Assembly: GCA_000993685.1 (NCBI GenBank)
Contig: LBWP01000001.1
Coordinates: forward strand, 9,739-73,738
Source of the DNA: Candidatus Woesebacteria bacterium GW2011_GWA1_39_21
GTDB lineage: Bacteria; Patescibacteriota; Microgenomatia; UBA8517
Length of the DNA: 64,000 nucleotides
Direction: 5' to 3'
The first letter of the stretch is position 1. Every line of letters begins with the position of its first letter. A model generated the notes under the pieces. That model made no database searches, was not told the origin of the DNA, and was given only the letters and a program-made list of their open reading frames with translations. The position numbers and the translations under genes were made by a program. Shown here in pieces: positions 7,923 to 57,607 of this stretch.

Positions 7923-7944
7923 GATGTTTTATTGAATTCATCTG

Positions 7945-8028
7945 CGAAATCCACGGACTTTAGTCCGTGGATGAAGCAAGAATCCAATCTTGTCGACAAA
8001 ATACCATGGGCTTTAGCCCGTGGTATTT
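7945..8028. repeat. REP-like two-hairpin repeat, copy 1
   Basis: Two perfect hairpins, CCACGGACT-TT-AGTCCGTGG and TACCATGGGC-TTT-AGCCCGTGGTA, are joined by a conserved spacer. An inverted copy lies at 46289..46369. Confidence 0.8.
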
Positions 8029-8174
8029 TATTGCCACTTTGCCTAAAACCATGTCTATAGAGAAACTCATCCTATAGGAGGATGACTAGGACCTTGTCAA
8101 CTATATTTTACTGATTTGTCCTTGTCAAGTTTAACACCTTTTGCTAGGATGTCATTGATGCGATTCAGAACAAT

Positions 8175-29904: not shown

Positions 29905-30092
29905 GTTTTCGGAGACAAAAAAACAACTGGGTGGCCTTGCTGATGGATTATTTCCAAATATTTTCTAGTTTGTTCGATTATATCGTCCTTGGGTTGGGGT
30001 GCATCTGAAGAATAAAAATCTCGACCAAAGTCGTCGTAAATATCGCTTTTATAGACTAAACCATATTTATAACAGCGTTCAAGAAAACCCAA
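29823..30092 (-). CDS. Small hypothetical ORF that begins with TTG inside repeat copy A
   Basis: The 89-aa ORF's first codons are supplied by the repeat element, so it may be a remnant. Confidence 0.25.
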   Translation of the reverse strand: MGFLERCYKYGLVYKSDIYDDFGRDFYSSDAPQPKDDIIEQTRKYLEIIHQQGHPVVFLSPKTCSNIRHPKLQKRKCNGVWKTLEEEKN

Positions 30093-30208
30093 CCCTTCAG
30101 GGTGGGGATGACCCGCCTGCTTAGCTGCGCAAGCTAGCGGGCAGGATTCAACTCTGATATGTCATCCTCCTTGGGGAAACCCCGCCTTTTAAGGCGGGGA
30201 GGATGTCA
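30067..30208. repeat. Composite multi-hairpin repeat, copy A (with an extra internal GC hairpin insert)
   Basis: TTATAACAGCGTTCAAGAAAACCCAACCCTTCAGGGTGGGGATGA...CTCTGATATGTCATCCTCCTTGGGGAAACCCCGCCTTTTAAGGCGGGGAGGATGTCA matches the copies at 55187 and 57344. Confidence 0.85.
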
Positions 30209-30476
30209 TTAAAACCGTATTCCCAATTAATTTGTATAAATCTTTATCGTTGGTAATTCCCAGTGAATAACCGAGATATTTATCGTCGAACTTTGGTGCT
30301 TTGCCCATCTTTTGTTTGTTTAAATCAGAAAATTGTTCGATTGAAAAAATACCGGCGGAATATTTTTTTAGAGATTCAATGTCTTTGCGGTTCAGCCCGC
30401 TTTGCAGAATCTCCTGATCAAGATTTGTGGGGTTAAGGATGAATCTGTCTTGAGGAGTTTCTAAATACTCAAACAT
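30189..30476 (-). CDS. Small hypothetical protein (possible 5' piece of a gene interrupted by repeat copy A)
   Basis: The 95-aa ORF's stop codon lies inside the repeat element. Confidence 0.35.
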   Translation of the reverse strand: MFEYLETPQDRFILNPTNLDQEILQSGLNRKDIESLKKYSAGIFSIEQFSDLNKQKMGKAPKFDDKYLGYSLGITNDKDLYKLIGNTVLMTSSPP

Positions 30477-38116: not shown

Positions 38117-38146
38117 CTTATTCTTAATTAGTTGAGAATAAAAATA

Positions 38147-38179
38147 ATGAGCCTGTGATAAAGCAGGCTCATTTATTTT
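38147..38179. terminator. Bidirectional intrinsic terminator between pilin 1 and the convergent GT-C gene
   Basis: ATGAGCCTG-TGATAAAG-CAGGCTCAT is followed by TTTATTTT, and by an A/T run on the other strand. Confidence 0.6.
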
Positions 38180-40037
38180 GTTCCCCAGGAGGAAGTGTCG
38201 AAAGGATGGGGTCGGTGAGGATGGATTTCACAAGGAATGACCCGTATAATTCTTCATCCTTATAATAATATTTCATAAAAAGTGCTATATTCTTGTATCC
38301 TATTGAGTAATATCTTTTCATATTTGTAAGACTGAAGCTGTAACCCACAACATCCTTGTAGGAATCATATTCTCCCAAAAGGAAATTATTGTAAATTTCA
38401 TCCTGGGCGGTTACGTAATCTTCTTTTTTGGGTACCGATTCGGCCCCAACAACAAAGTGATACACCAATCCGTGAGGTATTGTGCCCAATTTCTTATCCT
38501 GGTCATTCACGATGACCCTGGGTACAGTTGAATAAATGTTATACCCCCTTCTTATGAGATTGACGATGCAGGAATATAATGTTTCCTGATCGATCGTGTT
38601 TCTGTTTTTAATAAGATAAGTCTTTGCCTGATCGGGGTTCATGGTACCTGATTCTACAAGAAATTTCTCAAAACCGGTGTTTCTTCCGGGGATGGTGATA
38701 TCCGGTCGGAAATTTTCTTCAAGTTGGATATATAGAGTATTGAATGCAAATTCATCGTTATCAACGAATAGGAAACTTTTATTTTCCAATGGCCCCAGTA
38801 CGTCTTTTGCAAGGTTATTGCCGATGTAAATGTCGGATAGATCGGTCTTCGGGTAATTTGCAATGAAATATGATATCGGAACTAAAGCGAATGCGGCCAG
38901 CGTCAATGGATAAAATAAACGGTATAAAGGCCTCCTTTTGATGATTTTATTAAGTAATTTTGTTAATAACAAAATACCGGGACCGGAAAAAAGCAAAAGA
39001 AAAATTACGGAAGGAATGTAAAATCTTTCGATTGTTGAAATGTTAGCAAGGCTTTTGGTTTCAACTTTTGCGTAAAAAATATAAAAAGGACCGATAAAAA
39101 AAAGTGCAGTCAGTAAATAAAATAATAAAAGGCGTCTTTTTTGTTTTAGAAAATAGATTACGCCCAAAACGAAAGCAAAAGGAATAATCGGATTTAAATA
39201 CTCCTTCCAATATATGTAATAAGAATGAAAATCGTTTACAAACATGAATGGTCTGTTCTCCGTATCGATCCATCCATAGTCCTTTCGTAATATCAGATAG
39301 AGTAAATTTTTGGCCGTGACAGCCCGATCCCAGTTAACTATCGGATTTTGTGCTGCAGCTATAGGTATGTAAAGATACGGTAACAGACCCAGGATGAATA
39401 AAAATATGCAAGTCAATATTAATTTTAAATCTTTCAGGATTTTAATGTCTGTAAATAAGACCGAGAGTCCAACTGCAGGAAACATAAGCAAAACTGTCAT
39501 GTTATTTGTGAGCGATAAACCGAGGAAGAAAGACAGCGGGTACAAAAGTCTGTTTTCTTTGCTAATTATAAACTTGATTGTGATAAGTGAGATTAGAAGG
39601 ATAAAAAAAAAGTGGAGGGAAAAGACTTCTGCAACCTCTGCGTATATCCAAAAAGGATAGATAAAAGCAAGAATTAAACTTATAATAATCGATATTATTT
39701 TATTTTTTGTTAGTGTTAGTGAGATTAGATAAGTTAAGATAATGGAGAGCGATGCAAATAATGAAGATATCAATCCGACTCTCCAGGCTACTGTATGTCC
39801 CAATGGAAGTGAGTTAAAGGTAATCCCAAGAAGTATATAAAGTGGATATCCCGAAGGATGTGGAACGCCTTTTGAAATGATCGCTGAAAGAAAGTCTCCC
39901 GAATCGCCAGCAAACACGCCAGGACAAATTCCGTTAACGTATATCAAAAAAGTCGATAAAAACAAAAACAATACAATAAAATGCCCAGACAGAAACTTAA
40001 GAAGAATCTTTGTTTTACTTATTTTTTTTACTACCAT
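38169..40037 (-). CDS. DUF2723/TMEM260-like GT-C-fold membrane glycosyltransferase (putative protein O-glycosyltransferase)
   Basis: The 622-aa protein has more than 12 TM helices. The N-terminal loop GDSGDFLSAI...GVPHPSGYPLYILLG matches the WDSGEF...HPPGYPLY signature of DUF2723/GT117. Confidence 0.55.
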   Translation of the reverse strand: MVVKKISKTKILLKFLSGHFIVLFLFLSTFLIYVNGICPGVFAGDSGDFLSAIISKGVPHPSGYPLYILLGITFNSLPLGHTVAWRVGLISSLFASLSIILTYLISLTLTKNKIISIIISLILAFIYPFWIYAEVAEVFSLHFFFILLISLITIKFIISKENRLLYPLSFFLGLSLTNNMTVLLMFPAVGLSVLFTDIKILKDLKLILTCIFLFILGLLPYLYIPIAAAQNPIVNWDRAVTAKNLLYLILRKDYGWIDTENRPFMFVNDFHSYYIYWKEYLNPIIPFAFVLGVIYFLKQKRRLLLFYLLTALFFIGPFYIFYAKVETKSLANISTIERFYIPSVIFLLLFSGPGILLLTKLLNKIIKRRPLYRLFYPLTLAAFALVPISYFIANYPKTDLSDIYIGNNLAKDVLGPLENKSFLFVDNDEFAFNTLYIQLEENFRPDITIPGRNTGFEKFLVESGTMNPDQAKTYLIKNRNTIDQETLYSCIVNLIRRGYNIYSTVPRVIVNDQDKKLGTIPHGLVYHFVVGAESVPKKEDYVTAQDEIYNNFLLGEYDSYKDVVGYSFSLTNMKRYYSIGYKNIALFMKYYYKDEELYGSFLVKSILTDPILSTLPPGEQNK

Positions 40038-40816
40038 TTCTTAATGAGGAATAGGTTATTAATATATATCGATTTGGAAGAATAGTAGTTTTCTACAAGG
40101 ACGGCTAGATACGATAATAAAAGTAAGGGAATGTATAAAGGTAAAGTCAGAAAGTAGTATAGTTTGTTTTTTTGATTTAATTCAACCAAATAGTTCTCCA
40201 ATAAAGTTTCAATTGCAGATAATAAACCACCTTGTTTTTTATAATAGTGCAGCCGGCAATGGTGGAGTTTGATGAGCCGGTCAAATGTATAACGCGTAAA
40301 CCTGAAATGATCATTCGGTTCTTCATGAAGAGCCCAGAGAAAGGGTGCAGTTATTAATAAGTATCCATTTCTTTTTAATATTCTAACCATTTCATCAAAT
40401 AGTATAAACGGGTCAGTAACATGTTCAAATACCTGGAAAGCACAGACAATATCAAAGGTATTATCCTGGAAAGGGAGCTTTCCAACGAGTTTATAATTTT
40501 CAGGAAAGTATATGTTTGGTTCATCTTTAATATTTACACTTTTATTCGGTGAGAAATTGGGAAAATCAATACCTAGGTATTTTGTATTTTTAAATAAAAA
40601 TTTATATGGTTTTTCTCCGCAACCAACATCCAGTAATTTTCCTTTTAGTTTATATTTTTTAACAACATATCCGATGTCTTTGCGCAAGAAATATCTTTGT
40701 GAAAAATGAGGTATTGTATAAAAAAGAAATTCATCTGTGAGGCTTTTACTCATATAATGTTTGTGATGTAAATAGTTTACAGTTAAAATCAGATTAATGA
40801 AAATAGCATTTTTCAC
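40031..40816 (-). CDS. Class I SAM-dependent methyltransferase
   Basis: Motif I is LLDVGCGEKPY, followed by ILKRNGYLLITAP. Confidence 0.75.
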   Translation of the reverse strand: MKNAIFINLILTVNYLHHKHYMSKSLTDEFLFYTIPHFSQRYFLRKDIGYVVKKYKLKGKLLDVGCGEKPYKFLFKNTKYLGIDFPNFSPNKSVNIKDEPNIYFPENYKLVGKLPFQDNTFDIVCAFQVFEHVTDPFILFDEMVRILKRNGYLLITAPFLWALHEEPNDHFRFTRYTFDRLIKLHHCRLHYYKKQGGLLSAIETLLENYLVELNQKNKLYYFLTLPLYIPLLLLSYLAVLVENYYSSKSIYINNLFLIKKW

Positions 40817-41954
40817 TTATACCAGACTCGAATATGGAGGCGGTGTTGCAAAATACTATATCGAGACGGCCTCAGGTTTAGCGAAAAGATATAAGAATTT
40901 GAAGATCGATATTATTAGTTTTGAAAAAAAGACGTTAAGAAAATTTCTTTTATTATATTTTTTATATTTTTTCGGGAAGCAGGATATGGACCAAAAAGAT
41001 AAGGAAAATATTATTTCGATCAAGAAAAAATTGGGCTTCGCCGGTTACTATCAATACAATTTTAAAAGTTTACTTAAAAAACTTAAAGGTTACGATTTGA
41101 TTTATACGACTAACAATTTATTGGAGGTTATGCTATTTAAATATTTGATTGGTTACCGACATATACCGCCTATTGTTTATGGATTCCACATCCCCATGTA
41201 TTATGAGTTTACCAGTTCACTGCAATCGAAAATTCATAATTTACTATATCGATCGCCATTATATATTAAGGCTCTGAAGGGAGCTAAAGTACTTCATGTG
41301 ATGAATACCTTTGATGAAGATATTATTAAAGATAAGTTTAATATTCATAATGTCAAAAAGATCTATTATGCGTTTAATTTTGATCAATTCGCAAAAGTTG
41401 TCTTTGAATATAAACCTCCTTACAAATGGAATAAACTCCGAACAAATATTTTATGGACAGGAAGGTTGACCGAACAGAAAGGCATAGATAAACTTTTTGA
41501 GATAATCGAAGGTGTTAATGCCGGAAAATGCGGTAAAAAAATTATATGGAATATATTTGGCGACGGTGAGCTTAAAGACAGGGTTCGCGCATTTTCATTG
41601 AAGCATAAAAATGTCAGTTTTTTTGGATACGTGGAAAATCGTTTTATGGCAGACATTATGAACAAATGCGATTTTTTTATTTCAACAAGCAATTGGGAAA
41701 GCTTCCCGTATAATATCTTAGAAGCACAGGCTTTCGGACTCCCTGTTGTTTGTTTTGATATCAGTGGTTGCAATGATATTGTTAAGGATGGGGTAAATGG
41801 ATATCTGGTAACCGACACCGCCGAATTTAAAAAACGGATTAACGATATTGTTATAAAAAATAAGTTTAAAAAAGAGAAGATACGAAATTATATTGTTTCG
41901 CGATTTAATTTCGAGGATTTGTTTTCGAAAATGTATCGATTATTCACAGAATGA
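40797..41954 (+). CDS. Glycosyltransferase family 4 (GT-B, retaining)
   Basis: A C-terminal GT1/GT4 domain is present (GRLTEQKGIDKLFE). The E-x7-E region is FPYNILEAQAFGLPVVCFDISG. Confidence 0.85.
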   Translation: MKIAFFTYTRLEYGGGVAKYYIETASGLAKRYKNLKIDIISFEKKTLRKFLLLYFLYFFGKQDMDQKDKENIISIKKKLGFAGYYQYNFKSLLKKLKGYDLIYTTNNLLEVMLFKYLIGYRHIPPIVYGFHIPMYYEFTSSLQSKIHNLLYRSPLYIKALKGAKVLHVMNTFDEDIIKDKFNIHNVKKIYYAFNFDQFAKVVFEYKPPYKWNKLRTNILWTGRLTEQKGIDKLFEIIEGVNAGKCGKKIIWNIFGDGELKDRVRAFSLKHKNVSFFGYVENRFMADIMNKCDFFISTSNWESFPYNILEAQAFGLPVVCFDISGCNDIVKDGVNGYLVTDTAEFKKRINDIVIKNKFKKEKIRNYIVSRFNFEDLFSKMYRLFTE

Positions 41955-42457
41955 AAAAATATAATTTAGGTTGCGGTAAAAAGTATATCAAAGGTTACAT
42001 CAACGTAGATGTAACACGGTCTGTTAAGGCAGACCTCTATTTCAATTTAAATAAATTCCCTTACCCAATTAAAAAGAAATCGGCTGACGAGGTTTTGATG
42101 GATAACGTTCTTGAACACTTGGATGATGTAGTATTGGTTATGGAAGAAATATATCGGATTCTAAAGCCAGGTGGTATTGTTAAAATTTATTTGCCTTATG
42201 CGAAGTCGGACGGTGCTTTGCAGGACCCTACACATAAACATCTGTTTACAGAAAAAAGCATGGATTATTTTAGACAAGATGATAAATATAATTATTATAC
42301 AAATGCAAAATTTCGTATATTGGTGAGTAAACCTTTTAACGCAAATAAAACACTCTTAAGTAAAATGCGAGTCTTTATCCCATTCAAACCTGTTCTCAAA
42401 TATTTCTTATTAAATATTTACGATGGTTTATATTTCGAAATGAAAGCGGTTAAGTAA
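41951..42457 (+). CDS. Class I SAM-dependent methyltransferase (Methyltransf_11-like)
   Basis: KKYNLGCGKKYIKGYINVDV...LEHLDD...ILKPGGIV. Confidence 0.75.
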   Translation: MKKYNLGCGKKYIKGYINVDVTRSVKADLYFNLNKFPYPIKKKSADEVLMDNVLEHLDDVVLVMEEIYRILKPGGIVKIYLPYAKSDGALQDPTHKHLFTEKSMDYFRQDDKYNYYTNAKFRILVSKPFNANKTLLSKMRVFIPFKPVLKYFLLNIYDGLYFEMKAVK

Positions 42458-43367
42458 TTGTCGATTTTGGGTTTTTTGAAGAGGTAACAATCTTCCACAC
42501 ACTATGGTCACGAAGTTTGTAAGTTACATCAAGATAACCAAAAATTCTCGCAATAATTTCCAGAATAACAGTAAATGCAGAAAAGATAAGTTCTTTGGCG
42601 TTGAAATTTAGTGTTGATAAAAATACGGGTAATATTAAAAAGTTAGAGAAAGTTATCACCTCATAGCCGTAATGGAGTTTTGTTTCATAATGCCCGGCAA
42701 AGATTCTTCGCCTTTGGCTTAAGAGTTCCCTGATCGTTTTCGGACCGCTATTGTAAACAATGGCTTTCTCTTCATAAATAACTTTATAATCCTGGAGTTT
42801 GATTAACGGCTCAATACTTGCTTCGTCAACGGCGGTATTTGGGGGAATCCGTTTGAAAACCTTTTTAAATGCTATCAACTCACCTACTTTTGGCCGTTCC
42901 GGAAATTTGAGATTAACAAGATGATGAAGTTTCCACTTTAGTTGGTTTGCGAAACCGCAAAATGTGTCCGGATTATCTGTTGGAATCACTTTGCCGCCGA
43001 CCATTCCGACACTTTTGTTCTTTAATTTATTCAAGAGTAGGAAATAGCATTTTTTATCTAATATCGTGTCAGCGCTTTGGAGTATCAGATATTTAGATTT
43101 TGCATATTTGATGAACAAGTTGACTGCCTTGGCTTTTCCTTCTCTGTTTACCTGAATAATCAGTCTGATTTTTTTATTTTTCTTTTTAAGCTTCTTGATA
43201 ATACTTACGGTATTATCCGTGCACCCCGACGCAATAATTAAAATCTCTCTAATCGAAAATTCGCTACCCAGCTCTTGTTTAGTAATTGATTTTATTAAAT
43301 TAGTAATATTTTCTTCTTCATTATAGGCGCAAATACCGATACTGAAATGAATTTTTACTTTTTCCAT
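42450..43367 (-). CDS. Glycosyltransferase family 2 (GT-A)
   Basis: FSIGICAYNEEENI...ASGCTDNT plus a DxD-like QSADTILD. Confidence 0.85.
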   Translation of the reverse strand: MEKVKIHFSIGICAYNEEENITNLIKSITKQELGSEFSIREILIIASGCTDNTVSIIKKLKKKNKKIRLIIQVNREGKAKAVNLFIKYAKSKYLILQSADTILDKKCYFLLLNKLKNKSVGMVGGKVIPTDNPDTFCGFANQLKWKLHHLVNLKFPERPKVGELIAFKKVFKRIPPNTAVDEASIEPLIKLQDYKVIYEEKAIVYNSGPKTIRELLSQRRRIFAGHYETKLHYGYEVITFSNFLILPVFLSTLNFNAKELIFSAFTVILEIIARIFGYLDVTYKLRDHSVWKIVTSSKNPKSTIT

Positions 43368-43470
43368 AAAATTAAAACAATTCTAACATATAAATTTCGT
43401 GTATTGAGTTTTGAAAAAAATGTGTGTCATAATGAACATGTAGTCTTTTCTTTTGTAAGGGGGTGAAAGA

Positions 43471-44100
43471 ATGAATAAACGTTATATTAAAGGACCAGAG
43501 GCGGGCGGATTTACGCTAATAGAGCTTCTTATTGTCATGGCGATCCTCGGTGTTTTAGCGGTTGTTGTCCTTGTTGCAATCAATCCGGTTCAACAACTTG
43601 CAAGAACTCGTGATGCAGGAAGAAAATCCGGTGTTTCTCAAGTTGGACGTGCTTTAGAAGCATTTTATACTTCCCATGGGGGAAAATATTTGTATGGAAG
43701 GACAGCTGGTTCAAATCCTGGTACCAACTGTAACACAGACGGTAACCAAGTTTTTTCTGATGCTGACGACTGGCTAACATGTTTAGTAAATACAGGAGAA
43801 ATTTCAACAGAACCAGGATTGATTAATTACTCTGTAGCTGGAACTGGTGTATGTACAATAGGGGCTCAATATTCATCGGAACAAAATGGTCTATGTTATA
43901 CGGTTAGTTCAGCTGACGATGAAGCTGTTGTTTATGCCAGGCTCGAATCTGACTCCGAACGAAGTAAATGTCCAGACTCAGGTGGGCCTTTCCAACCATT
44001 TTTTGTTTGGTCGACACGTGATGGTAGAGGTGGGTTGGTTTGCATAGCAGGCATCAATGTTCCAGCCCCAGGTGCACAAAATTGGAACCCGCAACAATAA
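43471..44100 (+). CDS. Type IV pilin, paralog 2
   Basis: MNKRYIKGPEAGG|FTLIELLIVMAILGVLAVVVLVAINPVQQLARTRDAGRK. It has a 50-nt stretch of perfect DNA identity with paralog 1 (GGTGTTTTAGCGGTTGTTGTCCTTGTTGCAATCAATCCGGTTCAACAACT). The central region has diverged. Confidence 0.88.
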   Translation: MNKRYIKGPEAGGFTLIELLIVMAILGVLAVVVLVAINPVQQLARTRDAGRKSGVSQVGRALEAFYTSHGGKYLYGRTAGSNPGTNCNTDGNQVFSDADDWLTCLVNTGEISTEPGLINYSVAGTGVCTIGAQYSSEQNGLCYTVSSADDEAVVYARLESDSERSKCPDSGGPFQPFFVWSTRDGRGGLVCIAGINVPAPGAQNWNPQQ

Positions 44101-44102
44101 AA

Positions 44103-44633
44103 ATGCGCGATAACAAGAGAGGTTTTACTCTGATCGAGCTATTGATAGTCATCGCGATATTGGGAATACTTGCGGTGATTATATTAGTAGTCATGAATCC
44201 CGGCGAAAGACAGGCCCAAGCCCGGGATACGGGTAGGATTTCCTCAGTTACACAAATTGGAAGGGCGCTGCAAGCGTACTATACGACAGAATCGTCTTTC
44301 CCCGACGTTGCAAATTGGGCGAATGATTTGGTGACGTCGGGTGAATTATCAACGTTTCCGGCAGGGGTAGCCTACACTTATAATTCAGTTACTGCCTGTG
44401 AGAGTTATCTCCAGCCTCTGACCGATGGTACGTATTGTTATGATGAAGATCAAGCGAATAATAATGGGGCTTTAATCTTTGCAAAGGCGGAATCAACGAC
44501 TTATCGTAGCAAATGCACATCTCCAGAAGAAGCATATTTTGTTTACTCAACCGAGGATTCTCGAGGCGGGACGATTTGTAGTCTTGGTGACCCGGTGCCC
44601 TGGGCAGGCGGAAGCATGAGCTATCAGAATTGA
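44103..44633 (+). CDS. Type IV pilin, paralog 3
   Basis: MRDNKRG|FTLIELLIVIAILGILAVIILVV. The start is taken at the internal Met of the 44040 ORF, 2 nt after the paralog 2 stop. Confidence 0.8.
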   Translation: MRDNKRGFTLIELLIVIAILGILAVIILVVMNPGERQAQARDTGRISSVTQIGRALQAYYTTESSFPDVANWANDLVTSGELSTFPAGVAYTYNSVTACESYLQPLTDGTYCYDEDQANNNGALIFAKAESTTYRSKCTSPEEAYFVYSTEDSRGGTICSLGDPVPWAGGSMSYQN

Positions 44634-44697
44634 TATAGTCCTTCTGAATTATTGCAGGTTGTTCACAAGCAGCGAACGACTTGTGTATACTTAATTA

Positions 44698-45513
44698 ATG
44701 TCTGAAATCTTTCTGATAGTCTCCCTTGCTCTTTTTGGATTAGTTTTCGGCTCTTTTATCACAGCTCTATCTTATCGCAGTATACGCGGTGTAAGTATTT
44801 TTAAAGGAAGATCTCTCTGCCCTCTATGTAAAAAGAAAATTTCTTGGAGTGACAATATTCCAATCATTTCCTATTTGTCACTGAATGGTAAGTCGCGTTG
44901 TTGTGGAAAACCAATCTCTTGGCGCTACCCTTTGATCGAATTTTTTACAATGTTGACTTTTTTGTTAATCGGCCTCGTCTATACAAATTGCAGCACTGTA
45001 ACTCCGCCGTTATGCGTACTTAACAACACCTTTTCTTTTTTAGTTCTCCCCTATCTACTTCTGATTTCGCTTTTTTTAATTACCGTTTTTATAACTGACT
45101 TTGAGCACAAGATTATCCTTGACGAATTTATATTTATTCCTTACGGGCTCACACTACTGTTGTTGATTTTTTTTAACCCGGAGTTTTCGTACACTAATAT
45201 TTTCTTATCGTTTACTTGCGCAGCATTTCTTCTTTTGGTCCATTTAATTACTCGTGGAAAAGGGATGGGTCTTGGTGATGTCAAACTTGCACTTCTGCCG
45301 CCATTGATTCTCGGTTGGCCATTTACTTTGCCATGGCTATTTTTGTCTTTTATCATCGGCGCTTTGGTAGGTGTAATTTTGATGCTTATGAAAAAGGCAA
45401 AATTTGGAAAACAAATTCCATTCGGGCCGTTTTTGATTTTAGCCTTCTTTTTAGTATTATTCTGGGGTGATAAATTGATGTTTTTATTTGGTTTTTTGAC
45501 ACTCTCACCGTGA
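44698..45513 (+). CDS. pilD: Prepilin peptidase PilD (A24 family)
   Basis: An N-terminal tetracysteine (CPLCKKK...CCGKPISWRYPLIE) and a polytopic C-terminal A24 domain are present. Confidence 0.9.
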   Translation: MSEIFLIVSLALFGLVFGSFITALSYRSIRGVSIFKGRSLCPLCKKKISWSDNIPIISYLSLNGKSRCCGKPISWRYPLIEFFTMLTFLLIGLVYTNCSTVTPPLCVLNNTFSFLVLPYLLLISLFLITVFITDFEHKIILDEFIFIPYGLTLLLLIFFNPEFSYTNIFLSFTCAAFLLLVHLITRGKGMGLGDVKLALLPPLILGWPFTLPWLFLSFIIGALVGVILMLMKKAKFGKQIPFGPFLILAFFLVLFWGDKLMFLFGFLTLSP

Positions 45514-46133
45514 CTTATTTTATGAAGTTTTTTACGAAAAACGAAATCATTGGTGTTCTGGTAATTCTTTTACTGATCCTTGTTTTGACTGGATTTAACT
45601 TACGGATTTCTCTGCGTCGTTCGCGAGATGCGCAGCGGCGTGCTGATGTCAACGATATTGTGAATGCTTTGGATAAGTACCAAAAAGATTTTGGCTTTTT
45701 TCCACCTTCTTCGGATGACGGAAAGATTATTGCGTGCAAAGGTGCGAATTTTGGAACTATTCCGTCTGATATTAAGGACGAGAATAGGCGGGGATATTTT
45801 ATCAATATGCTTAGAGGCTGTGATTGGGGTGACGATTCGCTACGTGATGTTGGGGACGATACATATCAAGCCTATCTTAATCGAATTCCAAGGGATCCGA
45901 AAGCGGATGAAGGGTTGGCGTATTTTTACATTTCCGATATGAATACTTTTCAGCTGTATGCCTACCTAGAAGGTGGTAAAACGGAGGAAGGTTTCAGACG
46001 AGGAATTATTGAGCGGAATTTGCAGTGTGGCAACCGGGTTTGCAATTTTGGCAAGGCGTACGGTGAGACGCCGCTTGAAATATCTCTGCAAGAGTATGAG
46101 AATGAAGTCAGCAAAGGGAATGCACAAAAATAA
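45510..46133 (+). CDS. Pilin-like protein with non-canonical processing site (MKFF|TKNE...)
   Basis: A hydrophobic N-terminal helix is followed by the pilin alpha1-C pattern SRDAQRRADVNDIVNALDKY. Glu is at +5 only if cleavage follows Phe. Confidence 0.45.
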   Translation: MTYFMKFFTKNEIIGVLVILLLILVLTGFNLRISLRRSRDAQRRADVNDIVNALDKYQKDFGFFPPSSDDGKIIACKGANFGTIPSDIKDENRRGYFINMLRGCDWGDDSLRDVGDDTYQAYLNRIPRDPKADEGLAYFYISDMNTFQLYAYLEGGKTEEGFRRGIIERNLQCGNRVCNFGKAYGETPLEISLQEYENEVSKGNAQK

Positions 46134-46288
46134 ACAACTCATGCCTCTTAGGCATGAGTTTTCTCGCCTAACAGGTTCAAAGAGTCCTTCGACTGTACTC
46201 AGGATGATTGACATGGCGAACCATTTGTTCACCGCTTCGCTTCAGCACAGGGCTAAAAGCCCTGAGTTATCGCGAAGTTTGAATAAAC

Positions 46289-46369
46289 TACCACGGGCTA
46301 AAGCCCATGGTATTTTGTCGACAAGATTGGATTCTTGCTTCACCCACGGACTTAAGTCCGTGGGTTTCG
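46289..46369. repeat. REP-like two-hairpin repeat, copy 2 (inverted relative to copy 1)
   Basis: It is the reverse complement of 7945..8028, about 95% identical. It overlaps the likely GTG start (46360) of the next pilin-like gene. Confidence 0.8.
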
Positions 46370-46827
46370 AAGAGGAATTCAATAAATCAAAAAGATCTTT
46401 TACACTTATTGAGCTATTGCTTACAATGGTTATTTTGGGTGGCATTGCTTCGATTGTTATCATCAAATACCCATCGTCACTACAAAAGACGCGCGATGTC
46501 CAAAGAATGAATGATTTAAAAACCTATCAGACAGCACTTGAAGTATGGGCTGGAAAAAATAGCGGGATTTATCCTACAACTGCTCCTTCTACACCAATAA
46601 ATGTTACAACGCTTTGTTCTCAACTTGATATTTCATCAACTTCATGCCCGAGCGATCCCAAGGGTTGGATTTATTCGTATGAAACAGATTCTGCAGGAAT
46701 AAAGTATACAATTTCATCTCAGATGGAGAAAGAGGCGTCCAACTATGTTGTTTGTTCAAGTGGAAAATCGGGGAACACAACGTCTGCCCCCTCAGATGGA
46801 ACTTGCCCGACATTTGTTGTGGATTGA
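46360..46827 (+). CDS. Pilin-like protein (class III signal KRS|FTLIELL, Ser at -1)
   Basis: SFTLIELLLTMVILGGIASIVII followed by TRDVQRMNDLKTYQTALEVW. No in-frame ATG is close, so the start is assigned to the in-frame GTG inside the repeat. The long ORF 45973..46827 is read-through. Confidence 0.6.
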   Translation: MGFEEEFNKSKRSFTLIELLLTMVILGGIASIVIIKYPSSLQKTRDVQRMNDLKTYQTALEVWAGKNSGIYPTTAPSTPINVTTLCSQLDISSTSCPSDPKGWIYSYETDSAGIKYTISSQMEKEASNYVVCSSGKSGNTTSAPSDGTCPTFVVD

Positions 46828-52137: not shown

Positions 52138-52878
52138 ATGTCACTGGAACTAAAAGGTGGTGTTTCGTTAGCTAATAGTAAGCCTTACCTAATTGTCTTT
52201 GCGGGGTTTGTCATTCTTTTCGCTCTGATTTATGCAACGGCAGGACGGATTTATAACGGAATGATAAAGACTATAAATGACAGTAAAGAAGTTGAGAAAG
52301 ATGTTGGCCTGCTTGACTCGAAAATAAATTCTCTGAAGACAATTAAGGTTGACTTGGGTAGCGATGATGTTAATTCTCTTAATGTTGCGTTTCCGGAAGA
52401 AGATAAAATGCTTTTTTTGTTTTCGCAACTGAAGGAATTAGCAAAAAATGATGGCGTGACACTAACAAATATTGATTTTACAACACCCTCCGTTCAAGAA
52501 GGCGATTTGTCAAGAAGCGTCATCAATTTGAGTATTAGTGGTGTTAAGACATCGGTTGAGAGTTTTATGTCGTCGGTCGCGGCGATTGCGCCGCTTTCCG
52601 GAATTGGACCTGTGAACTTTAGTAACGTTACTACCGAGGAAGGTCTTTTTGTGGTCAATGCATCCGTGGAAACTTATTTTTCCCCACTTCCAAAAAACCT
52701 GCCCAGCCAAAGTAGTTACATAAGCGTTTTAACTGATGATGAGAAGCAAACACTAAATACGCTTAAAAGTTTGAAAGTTCTGTCGGTTTACGTGAGTCAG
52801 GCTAAGCCGGCGGACGAAAGCGCAGTTAACCCATTTAATGAAGAAGAAACACAGCCTGTGCCCACACCGGCGCAGTAA
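52138..52878 (+). CDS. pilO: PilO-like pilus assembly protein
   Basis: A single N-terminal TM helix and a coiled-coil segment sit directly after pilMN. Confidence 0.5.
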   Translation: MSLELKGGVSLANSKPYLIVFAGFVILFALIYATAGRIYNGMIKTINDSKEVEKDVGLLDSKINSLKTIKVDLGSDDVNSLNVAFPEEDKMLFLFSQLKELAKNDGVTLTNIDFTTPSVQEGDLSRSVINLSISGVKTSVESFMSSVAAIAPLSGIGPVNFSNVTTEEGLFVVNASVETYFSPLPKNLPSQSSYISVLTDDEKQTLNTLKSLKVLSVYVSQAKPADESAVNPFNEEETQPVPTPAQ

Positions 52879-52880
52879 AT

Positions 52881-53126
52881 TTATTCGGTGGCTTTGTTTT
52901 CTTCGATCTCGAGAGTGAAGCCTATTCTTTCGAGGGTTGCCTTCGTTTTTAGAAGGGTGCGGATTGCTTTAATCATTCGCCCTTTTTTCCCGATAATTAT
53001 TCCCATATTTTCAGGTTTCGTGACGATTTTAAGTTTACTAAAACCTTCAGTTTGGTTATCCTCTTCAATTTTGAAATCTTTATTATCAAGGATTTCACTT
53101 ATGATGTGTTGTAGTAGGCTCTTCAT
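52881..53126 (-). CDS. khpA: KH-domain RNA-binding protein KhpA-like
   Basis: It has the GIIIGKKGRMIKAIRTLL (GxxG KH) motif. The start is taken at MKSLLQ, giving a 4-nt overlap with rpsP. Confidence 0.7.
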   Translation of the reverse strand: MKSLLQHIISEILDNKDFKIEEDNQTEGFSKLKIVTKPENMGIIIGKKGRMIKAIRTLLKTKATLERIGFTLEIEENKATE

Positions 53127-53344
53127 TTTGTTAATAGTTTTTTTAAAGAAGCCGATGCAATTGCACCCCGGCCAATCCATTTTTTGTAAGCATCATTGTC
53201 AATTTTGAACTCTTTTTTCGCGGGATTGAAAAACCCGATGTTTTCGATATACTTGCCGGTGTTTTTCTTTTCACCCTCAATAACAACAACTCTATAAAAG
53301 AGACTGTTTTTGCCTCCCCGTTTTGATAAGCGTATTTTTATCAT
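53123..53344 (-). CDS. rpsP: 30S ribosomal protein S16
   Basis: MIKIRLSKRGGKNSLFYRVVV...GFFNP. Confidence 0.9.
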   Translation of the reverse strand: MIKIRLSKRGGKNSLFYRVVVIEGEKKNTGKYIENIGFFNPAKKEFKIDNDAYKKWIGRGAIASASLKKLLTK

Positions 53345-53413
53345 ATAAATTTCAAGAAAACCGTCAATAAGTACTCGACGGAGGAATTGACAATGCAAAG
53401 CATTGGTTATTCA

Positions 53414-53470
53414 CTTGATATGTCATCCTCCCTCAAGTGGAATCGCCGATTAATTCGGCGAAGGATGACA
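53414..53470. repeat. Variant/partial copy D of the composite repeat
   Basis: It has the TGATATGTCATCCTCC...AAGGATGACATAAC outer stem with a different inner hairpin, TCGCCGA-TTAA-TTCGGCGA. It lies at the 3' end of rnc. Confidence 0.6.
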
Positions 53471-53504
53471 TAACATTAGTGATTTTAACGATTTTTGCTT
53501 CCGA

Positions 53505-55000: not shown

Positions 55001-55186
55001 ACACGAGTGATTTTACAAAATAATCGCCGTTTATACAATTGGGGAAATGATTTTAGCGTGTAGTTTGTAAATATCGTGGACTTTCATCTCACCGATAACC
55101 TGCCTGTTTTTACGCAGGTAAACGCGGGTAGAAGTAAACGAGTGTACTTATTTAGCCCGTAAGGCCGAGAATACGGAGGGCCTGCC

Positions 55187-55307
55187 CTTAGGTAGTTTAT
55201 AACAGCGTTCAAGAAAACCCCACCCTTCAGGGTGGGGATGAATTGAACTCTGATATGTGTCATCCTCCTTGGGGAAACCCCGCCTTTTAAGGCGGGGAGG
55301 ATGTCAC
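55187..55307. repeat. Composite multi-hairpin repeat, copy B (abuts the recG stop codon)
   Basis: It is near-identical to copy C. Read on the minus strand it presents CCCCACCC-TGAA-GGGTGGGG followed by TTTTCTT, and CCCCGCCTT-AA-AAGGCGGGG followed by TTTCCCC. Both are terminator-like. Confidence 0.85.
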
Positions 55308-55310
55308 TTT

Positions 55311-57326
55311 TTAGTTTAATCCAATTTCTTCACCAAGTACGTGATTAAGTAATTTTTTGTATTTACTGCGGTTGACAATGATACGGTCGGCATATCCTTT
55401 TGCGAGTTTAATCAGTTTGGTATCTTCCCATGAGGCATTTTTCAACTCGTAGAATCCGTGTTGGGCTGTCCCAAAGATTTCTCCGGGACCCCTGATTTTC
55501 AGATCGATTTCGGCAAGTTCAAATCCCGAGTTGTGAGATTTTAATGCGGCCAATCTTTTTGAGACATAACGGTCGTATTTTGTTGGAAGCAGGAGGCAAT
55601 ATGACTTTTTGCTACCGCGCCCGACACGTCCTCGCAATTGATGTAGTTGTGCCAATCCGAATCTTTCCGCGGCTTCTACAATCATAATTGTGGCATTGGC
55701 AATATCGATACCGACTTCGACAACAGGAGTTGAGACAAGGATATCGCTTTTTCCTTCTTTAAAACGCTTGATAGCAAGGTCCTTTTCCGCCGGTTTCATT
55801 CTTCCATGCAGGATATCGACACGATAGCCCTTAAAAATTTTTTTGAGTGATTCGAATTCGGCGACGACTGCCCGTACCGATTTAAGTGTTTCGGCTTCCG
55901 ACTCTTCAATCAAAGGACAAATATTGAAAACCTGAATATGTTCATTCTTGATTTGTTTTTTGATCCAATCGTATGCAGGTGACCTTTTTTTTGACGGGAC
56001 AATCCAGGTGGTGACAGGTTTTCTTCCCACGGGTAGTTCGGTAAGAAGCGACAAATCAAGATCGCCGTAGATTGTCAGCGCAACAGTTCTTGGAATTGGT
56101 GTTGCTGTCATAGTTAAGACGTGTGGAATTTTGTTGCCACTCCCCGACTGTTTAATCAGGTGCGTCCTTTGTTCAACTCCGAAACGATGCTGTTCGTCGA
56201 TGACGATAATTCCAACTTGCTCGCTATCAATAATTCTGTGGATAAGTGCATGTGTTCCAACAAAAACGTCAGTTTTGCCAAGGTCACCCTTTTTTGTATT
56301 CGAAGTGATTAGTTTGACTCTGATTTTGTATTTTTCAAAAAGCTTGTTAAGGGTTTCGAAATGTTGGTTTGCCAGGATTTGTGTTGGCGCCATCACAATG
56401 GATTGATATCCGGCAAGAAATGTTGCAAAAATACCAATAGCCGCGACGACGGTTTTTCCGCTTCCAACATCACCTTCGAGAAGTCGATTCATCGGTGTTT
56501 CTTTCGTGAGGTCGGTTAATATTTCTTTGACGCTTTTTTCCTGTGACAATGTGAGCATAAAGGGAAGGTTTTTGATAAACGTGTCAATCTGACTACTATT
56601 GACCTTGATTTTGTAAAGAGCGATGTTTTCTTTCCAACGCTCTTTGCGATACGTGCTGCGAATTGTCAAAGTGAGAAGCTCATTAAACGCCAATCGTTTC
56701 TTAGCGTTTAGATACTCGTCTTCATTTTCAGGAAAGTGAAGCTTATGAATTGCAGCTTCGTAATCCATCAACGAATATTTTTGAAGATCGGTTACAGGTA
56801 TAAAGTCTACAATTTCCGGTTTTGAAACCTGCAGTGCGAAAGCAATTTTTGTACGGAGCCATTTTGACGACACGCCGTATGTTTCTGGATATATTGGAAT
56901 GAGTCGACCGGTGTGGATTGAACCAGCGCCGAGTTCATAATCTGGAGCAATAAAAGCTTTATCGGATCCAAAAAATTCGATCTTTCCTGCAAACCAATAT
57001 TCAATTTTTCGCTTCAGGCTCATCATCAGGTAGGGTTGGTTAAACCAAATGATTTTCATTTTCCCACTTGTGTCTTCGATTTCGGCTAATTGCATAACTT
57101 TTCCGGATTTGGTGTATTGGTTTCGTATGAAATTTAACTTGGCCTTCACAGATGCAATATCACCAATCCTTAGTTTCGCAATCGGTTTTGTTTTTCGGTA
57201 GTCAAGATATCTACTTGGGGGGTGTGTTAACAAATCGGAAATTTTTGCAATCCCCAGTTTTTCAAGTCTTTTTAAATAAACAGGGCCGATTTTTGGCAAT
57301 CTTGAGACTGGATTAGACAATTTCAT
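55311..57326 (-). CDS. recG: ATP-dependent DNA helicase RecG
   Basis: A wedge domain precedes a DEAH helicase core with GDVGSGKT, DEQHRFG and the QLRGRVGR motif VI. The start is taken at ATG (MKLSNPVSRLPKIGP). The ORF track extends it to a TTG inside repeat copy C. Confidence 0.9.
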   Translation of the reverse strand: MKLSNPVSRLPKIGPVYLKRLEKLGIAKISDLLTHPPSRYLDYRKTKPIAKLRIGDIASVKAKLNFIRNQYTKSGKVMQLAEIEDTSGKMKIIWFNQPYLMMSLKRKIEYWFAGKIEFFGSDKAFIAPDYELGAGSIHTGRLIPIYPETYGVSSKWLRTKIAFALQVSKPEIVDFIPVTDLQKYSLMDYEAAIHKLHFPENEDEYLNAKKRLAFNELLTLTIRSTYRKERWKENIALYKIKVNSSQIDTFIKNLPFMLTLSQEKSVKEILTDLTKETPMNRLLEGDVGSGKTVVAAIGIFATFLAGYQSIVMAPTQILANQHFETLNKLFEKYKIRVKLITSNTKKGDLGKTDVFVGTHALIHRIIDSEQVGIIVIDEQHRFGVEQRTHLIKQSGSGNKIPHVLTMTATPIPRTVALTIYGDLDLSLLTELPVGRKPVTTWIVPSKKRSPAYDWIKKQIKNEHIQVFNICPLIEESEAETLKSVRAVVAEFESLKKIFKGYRVDILHGRMKPAEKDLAIKRFKEGKSDILVSTPVVEVGIDIANATIMIVEAAERFGLAQLHQLRGRVGRGSKKSYCLLLPTKYDRYVSKRLAALKSHNSGFELAEIDLKIRGPGEIFGTAQHGFYELKNASWEDTKLIKLAKGYADRIIVNRSKYKKLLNHVLGEEIGLN

Positions 57327-57343
57327 TAAGATTATGATAACAC

Positions 57344-57451
57344 TTATAACAGCGTTCAAGAAAACCCCACCCTTCAGGGTGGGGATGAATTGAACTCTGA
57401 TATGTCATCCTCCTTGGGGAAACCCCGTCTTTTAAGGCGGGGAGGATGTCA
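57344..57451. repeat. Composite multi-hairpin repeat, copy C (16 nt upstream of the recG start)
   Basis: It has the same sequence as copy B with one substitution. Confidence 0.85.
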
Positions 57452-57607
57452 TTTTTAGCGCTCGTGGTTGATTTAATTTATCTAAACGATGTAGAAAAGC
57501 ATCGGAATGAAGGTGGTTAGAAGTAACGCAATTGTCGCGATAATTACAAGAATTCTAATTAAACTCTGTTGTTTTTTAGTTCTTAACATTATTTTGTAAT
57601 GTGGAGT

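What the first reader, a model, noticed from the sequence alone, without database searches (positions are those of the whole stretch)
55187..57451. recG is bracketed by two directly repeated ~110-nt multi-hairpin elements, one abutting its stop codon and one 16 nt upstream of its start
Copies B (55187..55307) and C (57344..57451) are about 98% identical and in the same orientation. Each has a GC hairpin CCCCACCC-TTCA-GGGTGGGG. That is followed by a long stem, CATCCTCC...GGAGGATG, which encloses two inner hairpins, GGGG-AAA-CCCC and GCCTT-TT-AAGGC. The outer stem pairs an anti-SD-like CCTCC with a GGAGGATG that resembles a Shine-Dalgarno plus ATG. Copy A (30067..30208) and a variant D (53414..53470) have the same orientation. 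All four copies lie at the 3' ends of minus-strand genes: a small ORF, recG, tyrS and rnc. Read on the minus strand they present two stem-plus-T-tract modules. That suggests a dispersed family of composite intrinsic terminators or 3'-UTR RNA elements. The direct repeats flanking recG also provide a substrate for RecA-independent deletion or amplification of this repair gene. The ORF track's TTG start for recG is supplied by the repeat itself.
Basis: seen in the sequence. Interest (0 to 1): 0.6.

Follow-up and report, generated by a model that had tools for sequence, protein, structure and literature searches.

The report
Small hairpin transposon family in Woesebacteria
The repeats around recG are copies of a roughly 108-base, gene-less mobile DNA element found across Woesebacteria (small-genome groundwater bacteria of the candidate phyla radiation); it folds into a conserved multi-hairpin shape and appears to spread the way single-strand IS200/IS605 transposons do, so it is not a dedicated terminator.

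Summary
The repeats are real. Copies sit at 30067-30209 (A), 55197-55307 (B) and 57344-57452 (C). Copy D is a full-length degenerate copy at 53341-53471. All lie on the + strand. The source is Ca. Woesebacteria GW2011_GWA1_39_21.

The family is large: 66 copies in about 20 Woesebacteria/Patescibacteria MAGs and at least 103 in groundwater metagenomes. None matched in viral contigs.

- **Structure:** there are four helices. 24 of 29 pairs show compensatory changes and 97.5% of cells are paired.
- **Ends:** both ends are sharp, with no terminal inverted repeats and no target duplication.
- **Insertion:** two filled/empty comparisons place the insertion immediately 3' of T(C/T)AT. Syntenic relatives lack B, C and D.
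- **Orientation:** it is random relative to neighbouring genes (p=0.35). It follows GC skew instead (53/66 copies, then 61/85 in an independent set).

I read this as a non-autonomous IS200/IS605-type (PATE-like) single-strand transposon. No TnpA or TnpB was found, so family membership is unproven. HgcC RNA (RF00062) is a recurrent Rfam match, below that family's gathering score.

On the minus strand hairpin 1 does look like a terminator. That is probably a side effect of the element, not its purpose.

The parts
57344..57452 (+). Copy C, full element: target-like TTAT at 57344-57347, then the 105-nt body AACAG...GTCAT. It lies between a 35-aa ORF downstream of tyrS and the recG start.
   Evidence: 122.1 bits with the family covariance model; sequence; absent at the same site in L057 and L059
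57350..57399 (+). 5' domain of copy C. P1 closing stem is 57350-57359 with 57390-57399. P2 (hairpin 1, CCCCACCC-TTCA-GGGTGGGG) is 57365-57384.
   Evidence: Folds; covariation in P2 (8 of 8 pairs) and in the P1 extension
57402..57452 (+). 3' domain of copy C. P3 outer stem ATGTCATCCT/AGGATGTCAT is 57402-57411 with 57443-57452. P4 (hairpin 2, CCCCGTC-TTTTAA-GGCGGGG) is 57423-57442.
   Evidence: P3 has compensatory changes in 6 of 9 pairs and P4 in 8 of 8, in the set where this domain was not part of the search pattern
55197..55307 (+). Copy B, full element with a 2-nt GT insertion. It ends 3 nt from the recG stop codon (55311-55313).
   Evidence: 114.7 bits; 97.3% identical to C; the syntenic relatives' loci L057 and L059 contain no copy of the element
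30067..30209 (+). Copy A, full element with a 34-nt extra hairpin inserted after hairpin 1 (30112-30145). It overlaps the end of an unannotated 95-aa ORF downstream of gyrB.
   Evidence: 86.1 bits
53341..53471 (+). Copy D, a degenerate full-length copy of the TCAT subtype. Its TCAT (53341-53344) is the reverse complement of the rpsP start ATGA.
   Evidence: 45.6 bits. Filled versus empty alignment with L057/L059: TATCAT|element|AAC... against TATCAT|AACTCC...
7929..8090 (+). Possible fifth copy, rearranged and decayed: two family-type hairpins plus a short CATCCT...GGAGGATGA stem.
   Evidence: 32.3 bits, E 8e-4; sequence and fold. Weak.
55311..57326 (-). recG (671 aa from the ATG at 57326), bracketed by B and C. 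It is not part of the element.
   Evidence: Pfam RecG_wedge, DEAD, Helicase_C and RecG_dom3_C; called as 671 aa in public assemblies

Best explanation
These are copies of a non-autonomous mobile element about 105 nt long. It behaves like a left-end/right-end fusion of an IS200/IS605-type insertion sequence (a PATE-like element).

The proposed mechanism is inferred, not shown. One strand, TTAT|AACAG...GTCAT, folds into two stem-closed domains, each topped by a G+C-rich hairpin. A transposase supplied in trans, of the HUH tyrosine type that recognises DNA structure, would cut 3' of a flanking T(C/T)AT and 3' of the terminal TCAT. It would move that strand as single-stranded DNA into the lagging-strand template at replication forks and insert it 3' of a new T(C/T)AT without duplicating the target.

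This accounts for three features: the sharp ends, the absence of inverted repeats and target duplications, and an orientation that follows replication rather than the neighbouring genes.

Bracketing of recG follows from several insertions in a 4-kb stretch (D, B, C). Read from the opposite strand, hairpin 1 plus TTTTCTT can act as a terminator, and TTGAAC/TGTTATAA can act as outward promoter parts. Those are side effects that may soften polar effects on neighbouring genes.

Shown here: family membership, structure and covariation, insertion polymorphism, target motif and orientation bias. Inferred: the enzyme and the single-strand mechanism.
For: 1. **Family size.** The element is a family, not a local oddity. 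A pattern scan plus the covariance model found 66 copies in about 20 Woesebacteria/Patescibacteria MAGs, at least 23 of them in one 1-Mb MAG.
2. **Ends.** Conservation starts abruptly at T[T/C]ATA[A/G]CAG and stops abruptly at GTCAT. Flanks are unrelated, with no terminal inverted repeat and no target duplication.
3. **Insertion polymorphism.** Syntenic tyrS-recG-nusB-acp-rnc-rpsP loci in relatives with 72-78% TyrS identity contain no copy.
4. **Insertion site.** Two filled/empty alignments place the insertion directly 3' of TCAT or TTAT, which is retained in the empty site.
5. **Target-derived first base.** The first base of the tetranucleotide switches T/C between otherwise near-identical copies in three subfamilies: L024 versus L010/L023, L033a versus L020, and L056 versus L014. 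That is expected if the tetranucleotide comes from the target.
6. **Orientation.**
   - GC skew of the flanks on the element strand is positive in 53 of 66 copies (p=7e-7).
   - An independent metagenome set gives 61 of 85 (p=7e-5).
   - Splitting by gene strand leaves a replication-like component of about +0.04.
   - The whole window has positive skew on the + strand, where all copies lie.
   - Orientation relative to genes is random.
   - IS608 inserts 3' of a specific tetranucleotide, mostly into the lagging strand (PMC5027513).
7. **Hairpins at both ends.** Each is preceded by GAAAA/GGAAA. Hairpin 2 ends 10 nt before the 3' end, and hairpin 1 starts 17 nt after the TTAT. This resembles the hairpin-plus-guide layout described for IS200/IS605 ends (PMC6006769). 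My recollection of 19 nt and 10 nt for IS608 is from memory.
8. **Selection on the fold.** 97.5% of cells are paired, 24 of 29 pairs have changes on both sides, and 0 of 500 shuffles reach this.
9. **Rfam.** HgcC (RF00062) is the recurrent best match below threshold: 24-31 bits on the sense strand, for copy C in the window and for 6 of 12 other copies tested. Gomes-Filho et al. linked HgcC to a right-end-like tetraloop shared with IS1341-type tnpB 3' transcripts and PATEs (PMC4615843).
Against: - No Y1 transposase or TnpB was found. Genes next to copies are ordinary housekeeping genes. That is only about one genome's worth of DNA spread over dozens of genomes.
- No full-length element with cargo between the two domains was seen.
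- Hairpin 1 is hypervariable and differs from hairpin 2, even within one genome. IS608's two hairpins are alike (from memory). Variable stems with conserved junction bases look more like a functional RNA.
- The long closing stems P1 and P3, and the extra hairpins at fixed sites, are not features I can attribute to known IS200/IS605 ends.
- The G-U over A-C excess on the top strand is modest: 39:17 and 50:30.
- The HgcC match is below Rfam's gathering score and was not reported at E<=1 for two copies in L033.
- Filled and empty sites come from genomes about 25-30% diverged at the DNA level, so junctions are resolved only to about 1 nt.
Confidence: 0.55

Rival explanations
1. The element is mainly a functional structured RNA. 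It would be an omega-RNA/HgcC-like scaffold transcribed from the top strand, possibly guiding a TnpB-like or other protein with the 3' flank acting as guide. Mobility would be secondary or historical.
For: - Variable stems with strict compensatory changes, next to invariant junction sequences: TTCAAGAAAAC, GATGAATTGAAC, CTGATATGTC, GAAAC.
- Extra hairpins sit at three fixed sites, like variable arms.
- HgcC is the recurrent best Rfam match, always on the sense strand.
- The sharp 3' end is followed by variable flank, as in omega-RNA (PMC8612924).
- There is a G-U over A-C excess on the top strand.
- A possible alternative pairing of CCTCN with a proximal NGAGG also covaries.
Against: - No conserved promoter lies upstream; flanks are unrelated.
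- With random orientation relative to genes, only about half the copies could be read in sense by read-through.
- No TnpB was found in 1.3 Mb.
- A G-U:A-C ratio near 2:1 is low for a selected RNA.
- HgcC scores stay below the family's gathering score.
- No expression data were available.
Confidence: 0.2
2. The element would be a composite intrinsic terminator or 3'-UTR module, kept because it ends or stabilises transcripts of the genes upstream of it on the opposite strand.
For: - On the minus strand, hairpin 1 is followed by the conserved GTTTTCTTGAA and is called terminator-like at C, B and D.
- In the window, B sits 3 nt after the recG stop, and the other copies follow minus-strand genes.
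Against: - The four orientation classes relative to flanking genes are 20/14/18/25 (p=0.35).
- Copies also abut start codons, as D does at rpsP.
- Relatives with the same operon lack them.
- Terminator function needs neither the 3' domain nor the sharply conserved TYAT and GTCAT ends.
- Orientation tracks GC skew instead.
Confidence: 0.08
3. It is a REP/RAYT-type element: hairpin repeats spread and maintained by a single domesticated Y1 transposase, with host functions.
For: - It is intergenic, multi-copy and G+C-rich, with hairpins preceded by a short conserved purine motif.
- Several subfamilies coexist in one genome.
- REPs also carry a guide tetranucleotide 5' of the hairpin (PMC6006769).
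Against: - The unit is a fixed two-domain element of about 105 nt with both hairpins in the same orientation. It is not a 20-40-nt palindrome arranged in inverted doublets (REPIN/BIME).
- No GTAG-type guide is present.
- No RAYT was found, and pairs of copies flank ordinary genes: an RRM protein, dnaA and a membrane protein.
Confidence: 0.1
4. It is an ordinary MITE moved by a DDE cut-and-paste transposase.
For: Small, non-coding, multi-copy, intergenic, with insertion polymorphism.
Against: - No terminal inverted repeats and no target-site duplication.
- Strong strand asymmetry relative to replication.
Confidence: 0.03

Closest known systems
PATEs (palindrome-associated transposable elements): left-end/right-end fusions of IS200/IS605 elements, described in haloarchaea
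   Same: Gene-less and about 100 nt. No inverted repeats and no target duplication. A hairpin near each end, many copies per genome, and transcribed in at least one case (VNG_R0052, PMC4615843).
   Different: No parent IS200/IS605 element or TnpA has been identified in the hosts. The two hairpins differ, and hairpin 1 is hypervariable. Each domain is closed by a long stem. The hosts are CPR bacteria.
IS608 / ISDra2 (IS200/IS605 family, single-strand 'peel and paste' transposition)
   Same: Insertion 3' of a specific tetranucleotide that stays in the flank. A terminal tetranucleotide at the right end. Subterminal hairpins preceded by a short purine 'guide'. Orientation tied to the replication strand (PMC5027513, PMC6006769).
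   Different: These carry tnpA, with or without tnpB; the element here carries nothing. Their target is TTAC or TTGAT rather than T(C/T)AT. The mechanism here is inferred only.
HgcC family RNA (Rfam RF00062), a high-GC non-coding RNA of AT-rich hyperthermophilic archaea, function unknown
   Same: Recurrent best Rfam match (24-31 bits) on the sense strand over the full 130-position model. Shared layout: hairpin, GAUGA..UGAAC, GGAA(A)C, CCCCGCC...GGCGGGG hairpin, then AGGAxGUCA.
   Different: Scores are below the gathering score of 50, and no match was reported at E<=1 for two copies in L033. HgcC is archaeal. I could not check its copy number or mobility.
TnpB omega-RNA / sotRNA (RNA from the 3' end of tnpB and the right end)
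   Same: A structured scaffold that ends exactly at the element's right boundary, followed by variable flank (PMC8612924, PMC4615843). Weak partial matches to sot0042.
   Different: No tnpB is adjacent or anywhere in the sampled DNA. The scaffold here spans the whole element, including the left end.
REP / REPIN elements with RAYT transposases
   Same: Intergenic G+C-rich hairpin repeats thought to be handled by a Y1 HUH enzyme acting in trans.
   Different: Those units are short palindromes, usually in inverted pairs with a GTAG-type guide. This unit is a fixed, asymmetric two-domain element.

Membership tests
IS200/IS605-derived non-autonomous element (PATE-like) | No terminal inverted repeats and no target-site duplication | tested here: met
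   Flank profiles of 60 copies and two filled/empty alignments
IS200/IS605-derived non-autonomous element (PATE-like) | Subterminal hairpins at both ends, each preceded by a short guide-like motif | tested here: met
   P2 and P4 covary in every pair. They are preceded by GAAAA and GGAAA. Whether these motifs act as guides was not tested.
IS200/IS605-derived non-autonomous element (PATE-like) | Left end always 3' of a specific tetra- or pentanucleotide that belongs to the target | tested here: met
   T[T/C]AT or CTAT lies at the left boundary in 58 of 60 copies. It is retained in the empty sites. Its first base varies independently of subfamily.
IS200/IS605-derived non-autonomous element (PATE-like) | Orientation biased with respect to replication (top strand in the lagging-strand template) | tested here: met
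   53 of 66 and 61 of 85 copies have positive flank GC skew on the element strand. All window copies lie on the positive-skew strand. Skew is a proxy; no origin was mapped.
IS200/IS605-derived non-autonomous element (PATE-like) | Ends match a full-length IS carrying a Y1 (HUH) tnpA in the same or a related genome | tested here: inconclusive
   None found in 1.3 Mb around about 190 copies. Whole genomes could not be scanned.
IS200/IS605-derived non-autonomous element (PATE-like) | Left and right hairpins similar to each other, bound by one TnpA | tested here: not met
   Hairpin 1 is hypervariable and unlike hairpin 2 in most copies. The feature itself is recalled from IS608 and may not hold for the whole family.
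HgcC RNA (RF00062) | Score at or above Rfam's gathering threshold (50 bits) | tested here: not met
   Best scores 24-31 bits; no match reported at E<=1 for L033 copies
Intrinsic terminator / 3'-UTR element | Consistent orientation downstream of genes, with hairpin plus U-tract on the coding strand | tested here: not met
   The hairpin plus T-tract is present on one strand, but orientation relative to genes is random
Classical TIR MITE | Terminal inverted repeats and target-site duplication | tested here: not met
REP/REPIN | Short palindromic unit, typically in inverted doublets, associated with a RAYT gene | tested here: not met
   The unit is an asymmetric two-domain element about 105 nt long. 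Nearby pairs are mostly direct and flank ordinary genes. The RAYT search was limited to the sampled DNA.

The most novel reading that the evidence does not exclude
The element may be a previously undescribed class of mobile structured nucleic acid, shared between CPR bacteria and, through HgcC, hyperthermophilic archaea. Its whole length would serve two roles at once: the transposition substrate and an omega-RNA-like scaffold whose 3' flank acts as a guide. Copies could then recruit an RNA-guided nuclease or an unknown HUH enzyme encoded elsewhere to maintain themselves. On this reading the conserved alternative pairing (CCTCN with either the proximal or the distal GAGG) would be a functional switch.
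Probability: 0.15. Interest if true: 0.85.

Novelty: new variant of a known kind. Interest (0 to 1): 0.55.

Why it matters
CPR bacteria have genomes of about 1 Mb and are usually described as poor in mobile DNA. Here one small element is present at up to about 23 copies per Mb. It sits next to essential genes (recG, rpsP, dnaA, tyrS) and supplies false start and stop codons that mislead gene callers; in this window recG and rpsP are affected.

If the single-strand model holds, the family gives three things:
- a ready-made orientation marker for replication direction in unculturable genomes;
- a natural test set of about 170 covarying copies showing what an HUH transposase needs from its DNA substrate;
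- a possible link between the long-unexplained archaeal HgcC RNAs and transposon ends.

It also gives a concrete hypothesis for recG instability: 108-nt direct repeats lie 2.1 kb apart on either side of the gene.

Tried and rejected
- **Rfam at gathering thresholds.** Only two tRNAs matched in the window. Below threshold, HgcC recurs but never reaches its cut-off. HEARO, sot0042 and anti-hemB matches are weak and partial.
- **Coding reading.** On the minus strand GGAGGATGACATATCAG looks like a Shine-Dalgarno site plus ATG and opens spurious ORFs beginning MTYQ or MTHI. There is no SD-ATG spacing, and hairpin length shifts the frame, so I rejected it.
- **Transposase next to copies.** Ten co-oriented upstream ORFs are housekeeping genes. 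ORFs between paired copies are an RRM protein, DnaA and a membrane protein.
- **Left-end or right-end motifs alone.** Occurrences outside full copies were a long copy, a locus-edge case or isolated short matches that I did not follow up. None was followed by cargo.
- **Exact empty site for copy C in metagenomes.** No match.
- **Viral contigs.** No match.
- **Guide/target code.** TCAT left ends go with AAGGAAAC and TTAT with AAGAAAAC, while the right end has GGAAAC with TCAT. It is suggestive, but it rests largely on one subfamily and has exceptions (L055, L093, L147), so I do not claim it.
- **G-U versus A-C strand test.** The bias is modest, and the alignments were fitted to the model.
- **Extending the source contig.** A look-up with PheT failed. 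The 137-aa neighbour gave 8 kb more, with one further weak + strand hit and no transposase domain among the called genes.
Full report
**1. Observation**

Two 45-54-nt probes from the element each hit exactly three places in the window, all on the + strand, and none is expected in shuffles.

- B and C are 97.3% identical over 110 nt.
- A has the same two halves, split by a 34-nt extra hairpin.
- True bounds are A 30067-30209, B 55197-55307 and C 57344-57452.
- A covariance model built later shows D to be a full-length, degenerate copy at 53341-53471.
- The same model flags a weak rearranged copy near 7929-8090.

Folding gives two domains, each closed by a long stem. P1 (CAGCGTTCAA/TTGAACTCTG) encloses hairpin 1. 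P3 (ATGTCATCCT/AGGATGTCAT) encloses hairpin 2. Fold z-scores are -4 to -7.5 as RNA and about -6 as DNA.

recG is 55311-57326 from its ATG. The listed TTG start at 57359 lies inside copy C.

**2. Source and family**

Exact-protein look-ups place the window in Rifle aquifer assemblies. TyrS is annotated as from Candidatus Woesebacteria bacterium GW2011_GWA1_39_21.

- A gapped pattern for the 3' domain found 55 matches in 52 stretches from about 20 Woesebacteria, Blackburnbacteria, Microgenomates and Patescibacteria MAGs.
- The unselected 5' half was conserved as well.
- A covariance model then found 66 good copies in the window plus those loci. One 1.03-Mb MAG (DATDRP01) holds at least 23.
- Viral contigs had none.

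**3. Structure**

In the set ascertained by the 3' domain, both hairpins covary strongly. In the set ascertained by the 5' domain, the outer stem P3 was free to vary. It shows compensatory changes in 6 of 9 pairs, for example GTCGTCC/GGACGTC and CATTCTC/GAGAATG.

Overall 97.5% of cells pair and 24 of 29 pairs change on both sides. No shuffle out of 500 reaches this, and sliding the partners collapses pairing to 37-48%. That alignment was fitted to the model, which favours the structure somewhat.

P1 extends to CAGN/NCTG with GC/AT and CG/AT/TA exchanges. Junction sequences are nearly invariant: TTCAAGAAAAC, GATGAATTGAAC, CTGATATGTC and GAAAC.

Extra hairpins occur at three fixed places: after GATGA, in the linker, and in the loop after CCTCC. 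A local pairing of CCTCN with a proximal NGAGG also covaries and overlaps the inner part of P3. I could not decide whether this is a three-way junction or a switch.

**4. Not tied to genes**

With crude ORF calls, the four orientation classes relative to the two nearest genes are 19/14/13/13 in the first set. Across both sets, among 77 non-redundant copies with close neighbours, they are 25/20/18/14, and chi-square p is 0.35.

Neighbours are unrelated housekeeping genes. The element is therefore not a leader, terminator or 3'-UTR module by design.

On the minus strand, hairpin 1 plus TTTTCTTGAA is called terminator-like at C, B and D. TTGAAC gives -35-like matches facing outward. These are plausible side effects for the minus-strand genes in this window.

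**5. It is an insertion**

Relatives with 72-78% identical TyrS keep the order PBP-tyrS-recG-nusB-acp-rnc-rpsP but have no copy anywhere.

Joining the two flanks of every copy and searching all loci gave four spanning matches. Three were aligned in detail and are shown below; the fourth, L115 against L013, is too divergent to read a junction.

| Case | Filled site | Empty site |
|---|---|---|
| Copy D | TATCAT\|ATAAATTTCAAG...GATGACAT\|AACATTAGTGATTTTAAC | L057: TATCAT\|AACTCCATGGATTTTAAC |
| L115 vs L109 | ...TTTAT\|AACAG...GTCAT\|TAGAATTTATTTG | ...TGTCAT\|TGGTATTTATTTG |
| Copy C | GATAACACTTAT\|...GTCAT\|TTTTAGCG... | L057: GATATCACTTAA\|TTATTG... (flank spacing preserved) |

In the copy D case, the TCAT is the reverse complement of the rpsP start.

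The body therefore runs AACAG...GTCAT. It lies 3' of a T(C/T)AT that belongs to the target, and nothing is duplicated. Flank profiles agree: conservation begins and ends abruptly, with only an A-rich preference after GTCAT. The first base of the tetranucleotide flips T/C between otherwise near-identical copies in three subfamilies.

**6. Orientation follows replication**

- GC skew of flanking DNA, read on the element strand, is positive for 53 of 66 copies (p=7e-7).
- For the independent set it is positive for 61 of 85 non-redundant copies (p=7e-5).
- Splitting flanks by gene strand gives +0.119 for co-oriented genes and -0.035 for anti-oriented genes. That leaves a strand component of about +0.04 beyond coding bias. 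58% of coding bases are co-oriented.
- The window has positive skew on the + strand in 14 of its 16 4-kb blocks (the other two are near zero), and its cumulative skew climbs across the whole window, whatever the gene direction. All copies are on +.
- On the DATDRP01 contigs, copies run in long same-orientation blocks with single switches.

IS608 inserts 3' of TTAC, mainly into the lagging-strand template. Its TnpA binds subterminal hairpins and finds cleavage sites through a tetranucleotide 5' of the hairpin foot (PMC5027513, PMC6006769).

**7. What I conclude**

The features, taken together, match the IS200/IS605 way of moving:
- no inverted repeats and no duplication;
- a target tetranucleotide on the left and a terminal TCAT on the right;
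- a hairpin near each end;
- orientation tied to replication;
- lineage-specific insertions.

The size matches a left-end/right-end fusion, as in PATEs. Folding also brings the two boundaries within about 3 nt of each other at the P1/P3 junction, which would suit precise excision; that point is my inference.

**8. What is missing**

I found no TnpA or TnpB. There is none beside copies and none between paired copies. There was no cargo after isolated left ends. That sample is about one genome's worth of DNA, so absence is weak evidence.

Hairpin 1 varies far more than I would expect for a protein-recognised end. The conserved junctions and fixed-site expansions look RNA-like. The G-U over A-C excess on the top strand is modest (39:17 and 50:30).

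HgcC (RF00062) is the best Rfam match for copy C and for 6 of 12 other copies, at 24-31 bits on the sense strand. It stays below the gathering score of 50 and was not reported at E<=1 for two L033 copies. HgcC has been tied to a right-end-like tetraloop shared with tnpB 3' transcripts and a PATE-derived RNA (PMC4615843). Its function is still called unresolved (PMC5732400). An RNA role, alone or in addition, therefore stays open.

**9. Verdict on the finding**

The terminator/3'-UTR interpretation is only partly right, as an incidental property in this window. The bracketing of recG is three insertions (D, B, C) within 4.1 kb on the leading-strand sequence. The deletion or amplification idea is reasonable for 108-nt direct repeats 2.1 kb apart, but it is untested. 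All recovered contigs of this population carry the same arrangement.

I know of no description of this family. It is not in Rfam 15, and the paper searches I ran returned nothing describing such an element in Woesebacteria or other CPR bacteria.

Noticed in passing
window 57482-57589 (-): A 35-aa ORF (MLRTKKQQSLIRILVIIATIALLLTTFIPMLFYIV) lies between tyrS and recG. It has a hydrophobic core, and similar sequence sits at the same place in relatives L057 and L059. It is probably a real small membrane protein that gene callers missed.
   Followed up: partly
window 53123-53398 (-) and 53341-53471: Copy D sits directly against the rpsP start codon, where the relative L057 has a GGAG-type ribosome-binding site. 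Public gene calls extend rpsP to 91 aa with a TTG start inside the element, against 73 aa in relatives. How rpsP is translated here is unclear.
   Followed up: partly
window 55084-55263 (-); L033 1565-1708 and 1963-2361 (-): The reverse complement of the element (AAGGAGGATGACATATCAG) mimics a ribosome-binding site plus ATG. It seeds spurious ORFs beginning MTHI or MTYQ. This is a systematic annotation artefact in these genomes.
   Followed up: partly
window 37625-46441 (+): Four genes start with a repeated stretch that would encode FTLIELLIVMAILG-like N-termini (my own reading of the DNA; not translated or profile-searched). This suggests a cluster of type IV pilin or pseudopilin genes. A PilO-like gene (faint Pfam hit) lies at 52138-52878.
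   Followed up: no
L011, L015, L018, L022, L026-L028, L032, L039, L042, L050, L051: Several GTDB representative MAGs titled 'uncultured Gammaproteobacteria' carry typical copies of this Woesebacteria element. The titles are probably wrong, and these look like Patescibacteria.
   Followed up: no
L030 351-462 (+) and 2343-2454 (-): Two copies in opposite orientation flank dnaA, with rpmH-like sequence next door. This may mark the replication origin, although their orientations are the reverse of what a switch at an origin lying between them would give.
   Followed up: no
window 30112-30145; L016, L019, L049, L055, L089, L109, L112, L135, L147, L163: Extra hairpins of 20-60 nt are inserted at three fixed points of the element. 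Some insert types recur in different copies, for example ...GCCAAGCTnnGCTTATATG in the linker. They could be nested mini-elements or variable arms.
   Followed up: no
L073 4752-4833, L084 560-644, L086 717-801: Short variants in which the whole 3' domain is reduced to a single stem (for example ATATCATCATTTCGAGGATGATGTCAT) but the terminal GTCAT is kept. Hairpin 2 may therefore be dispensable.
   Followed up: no
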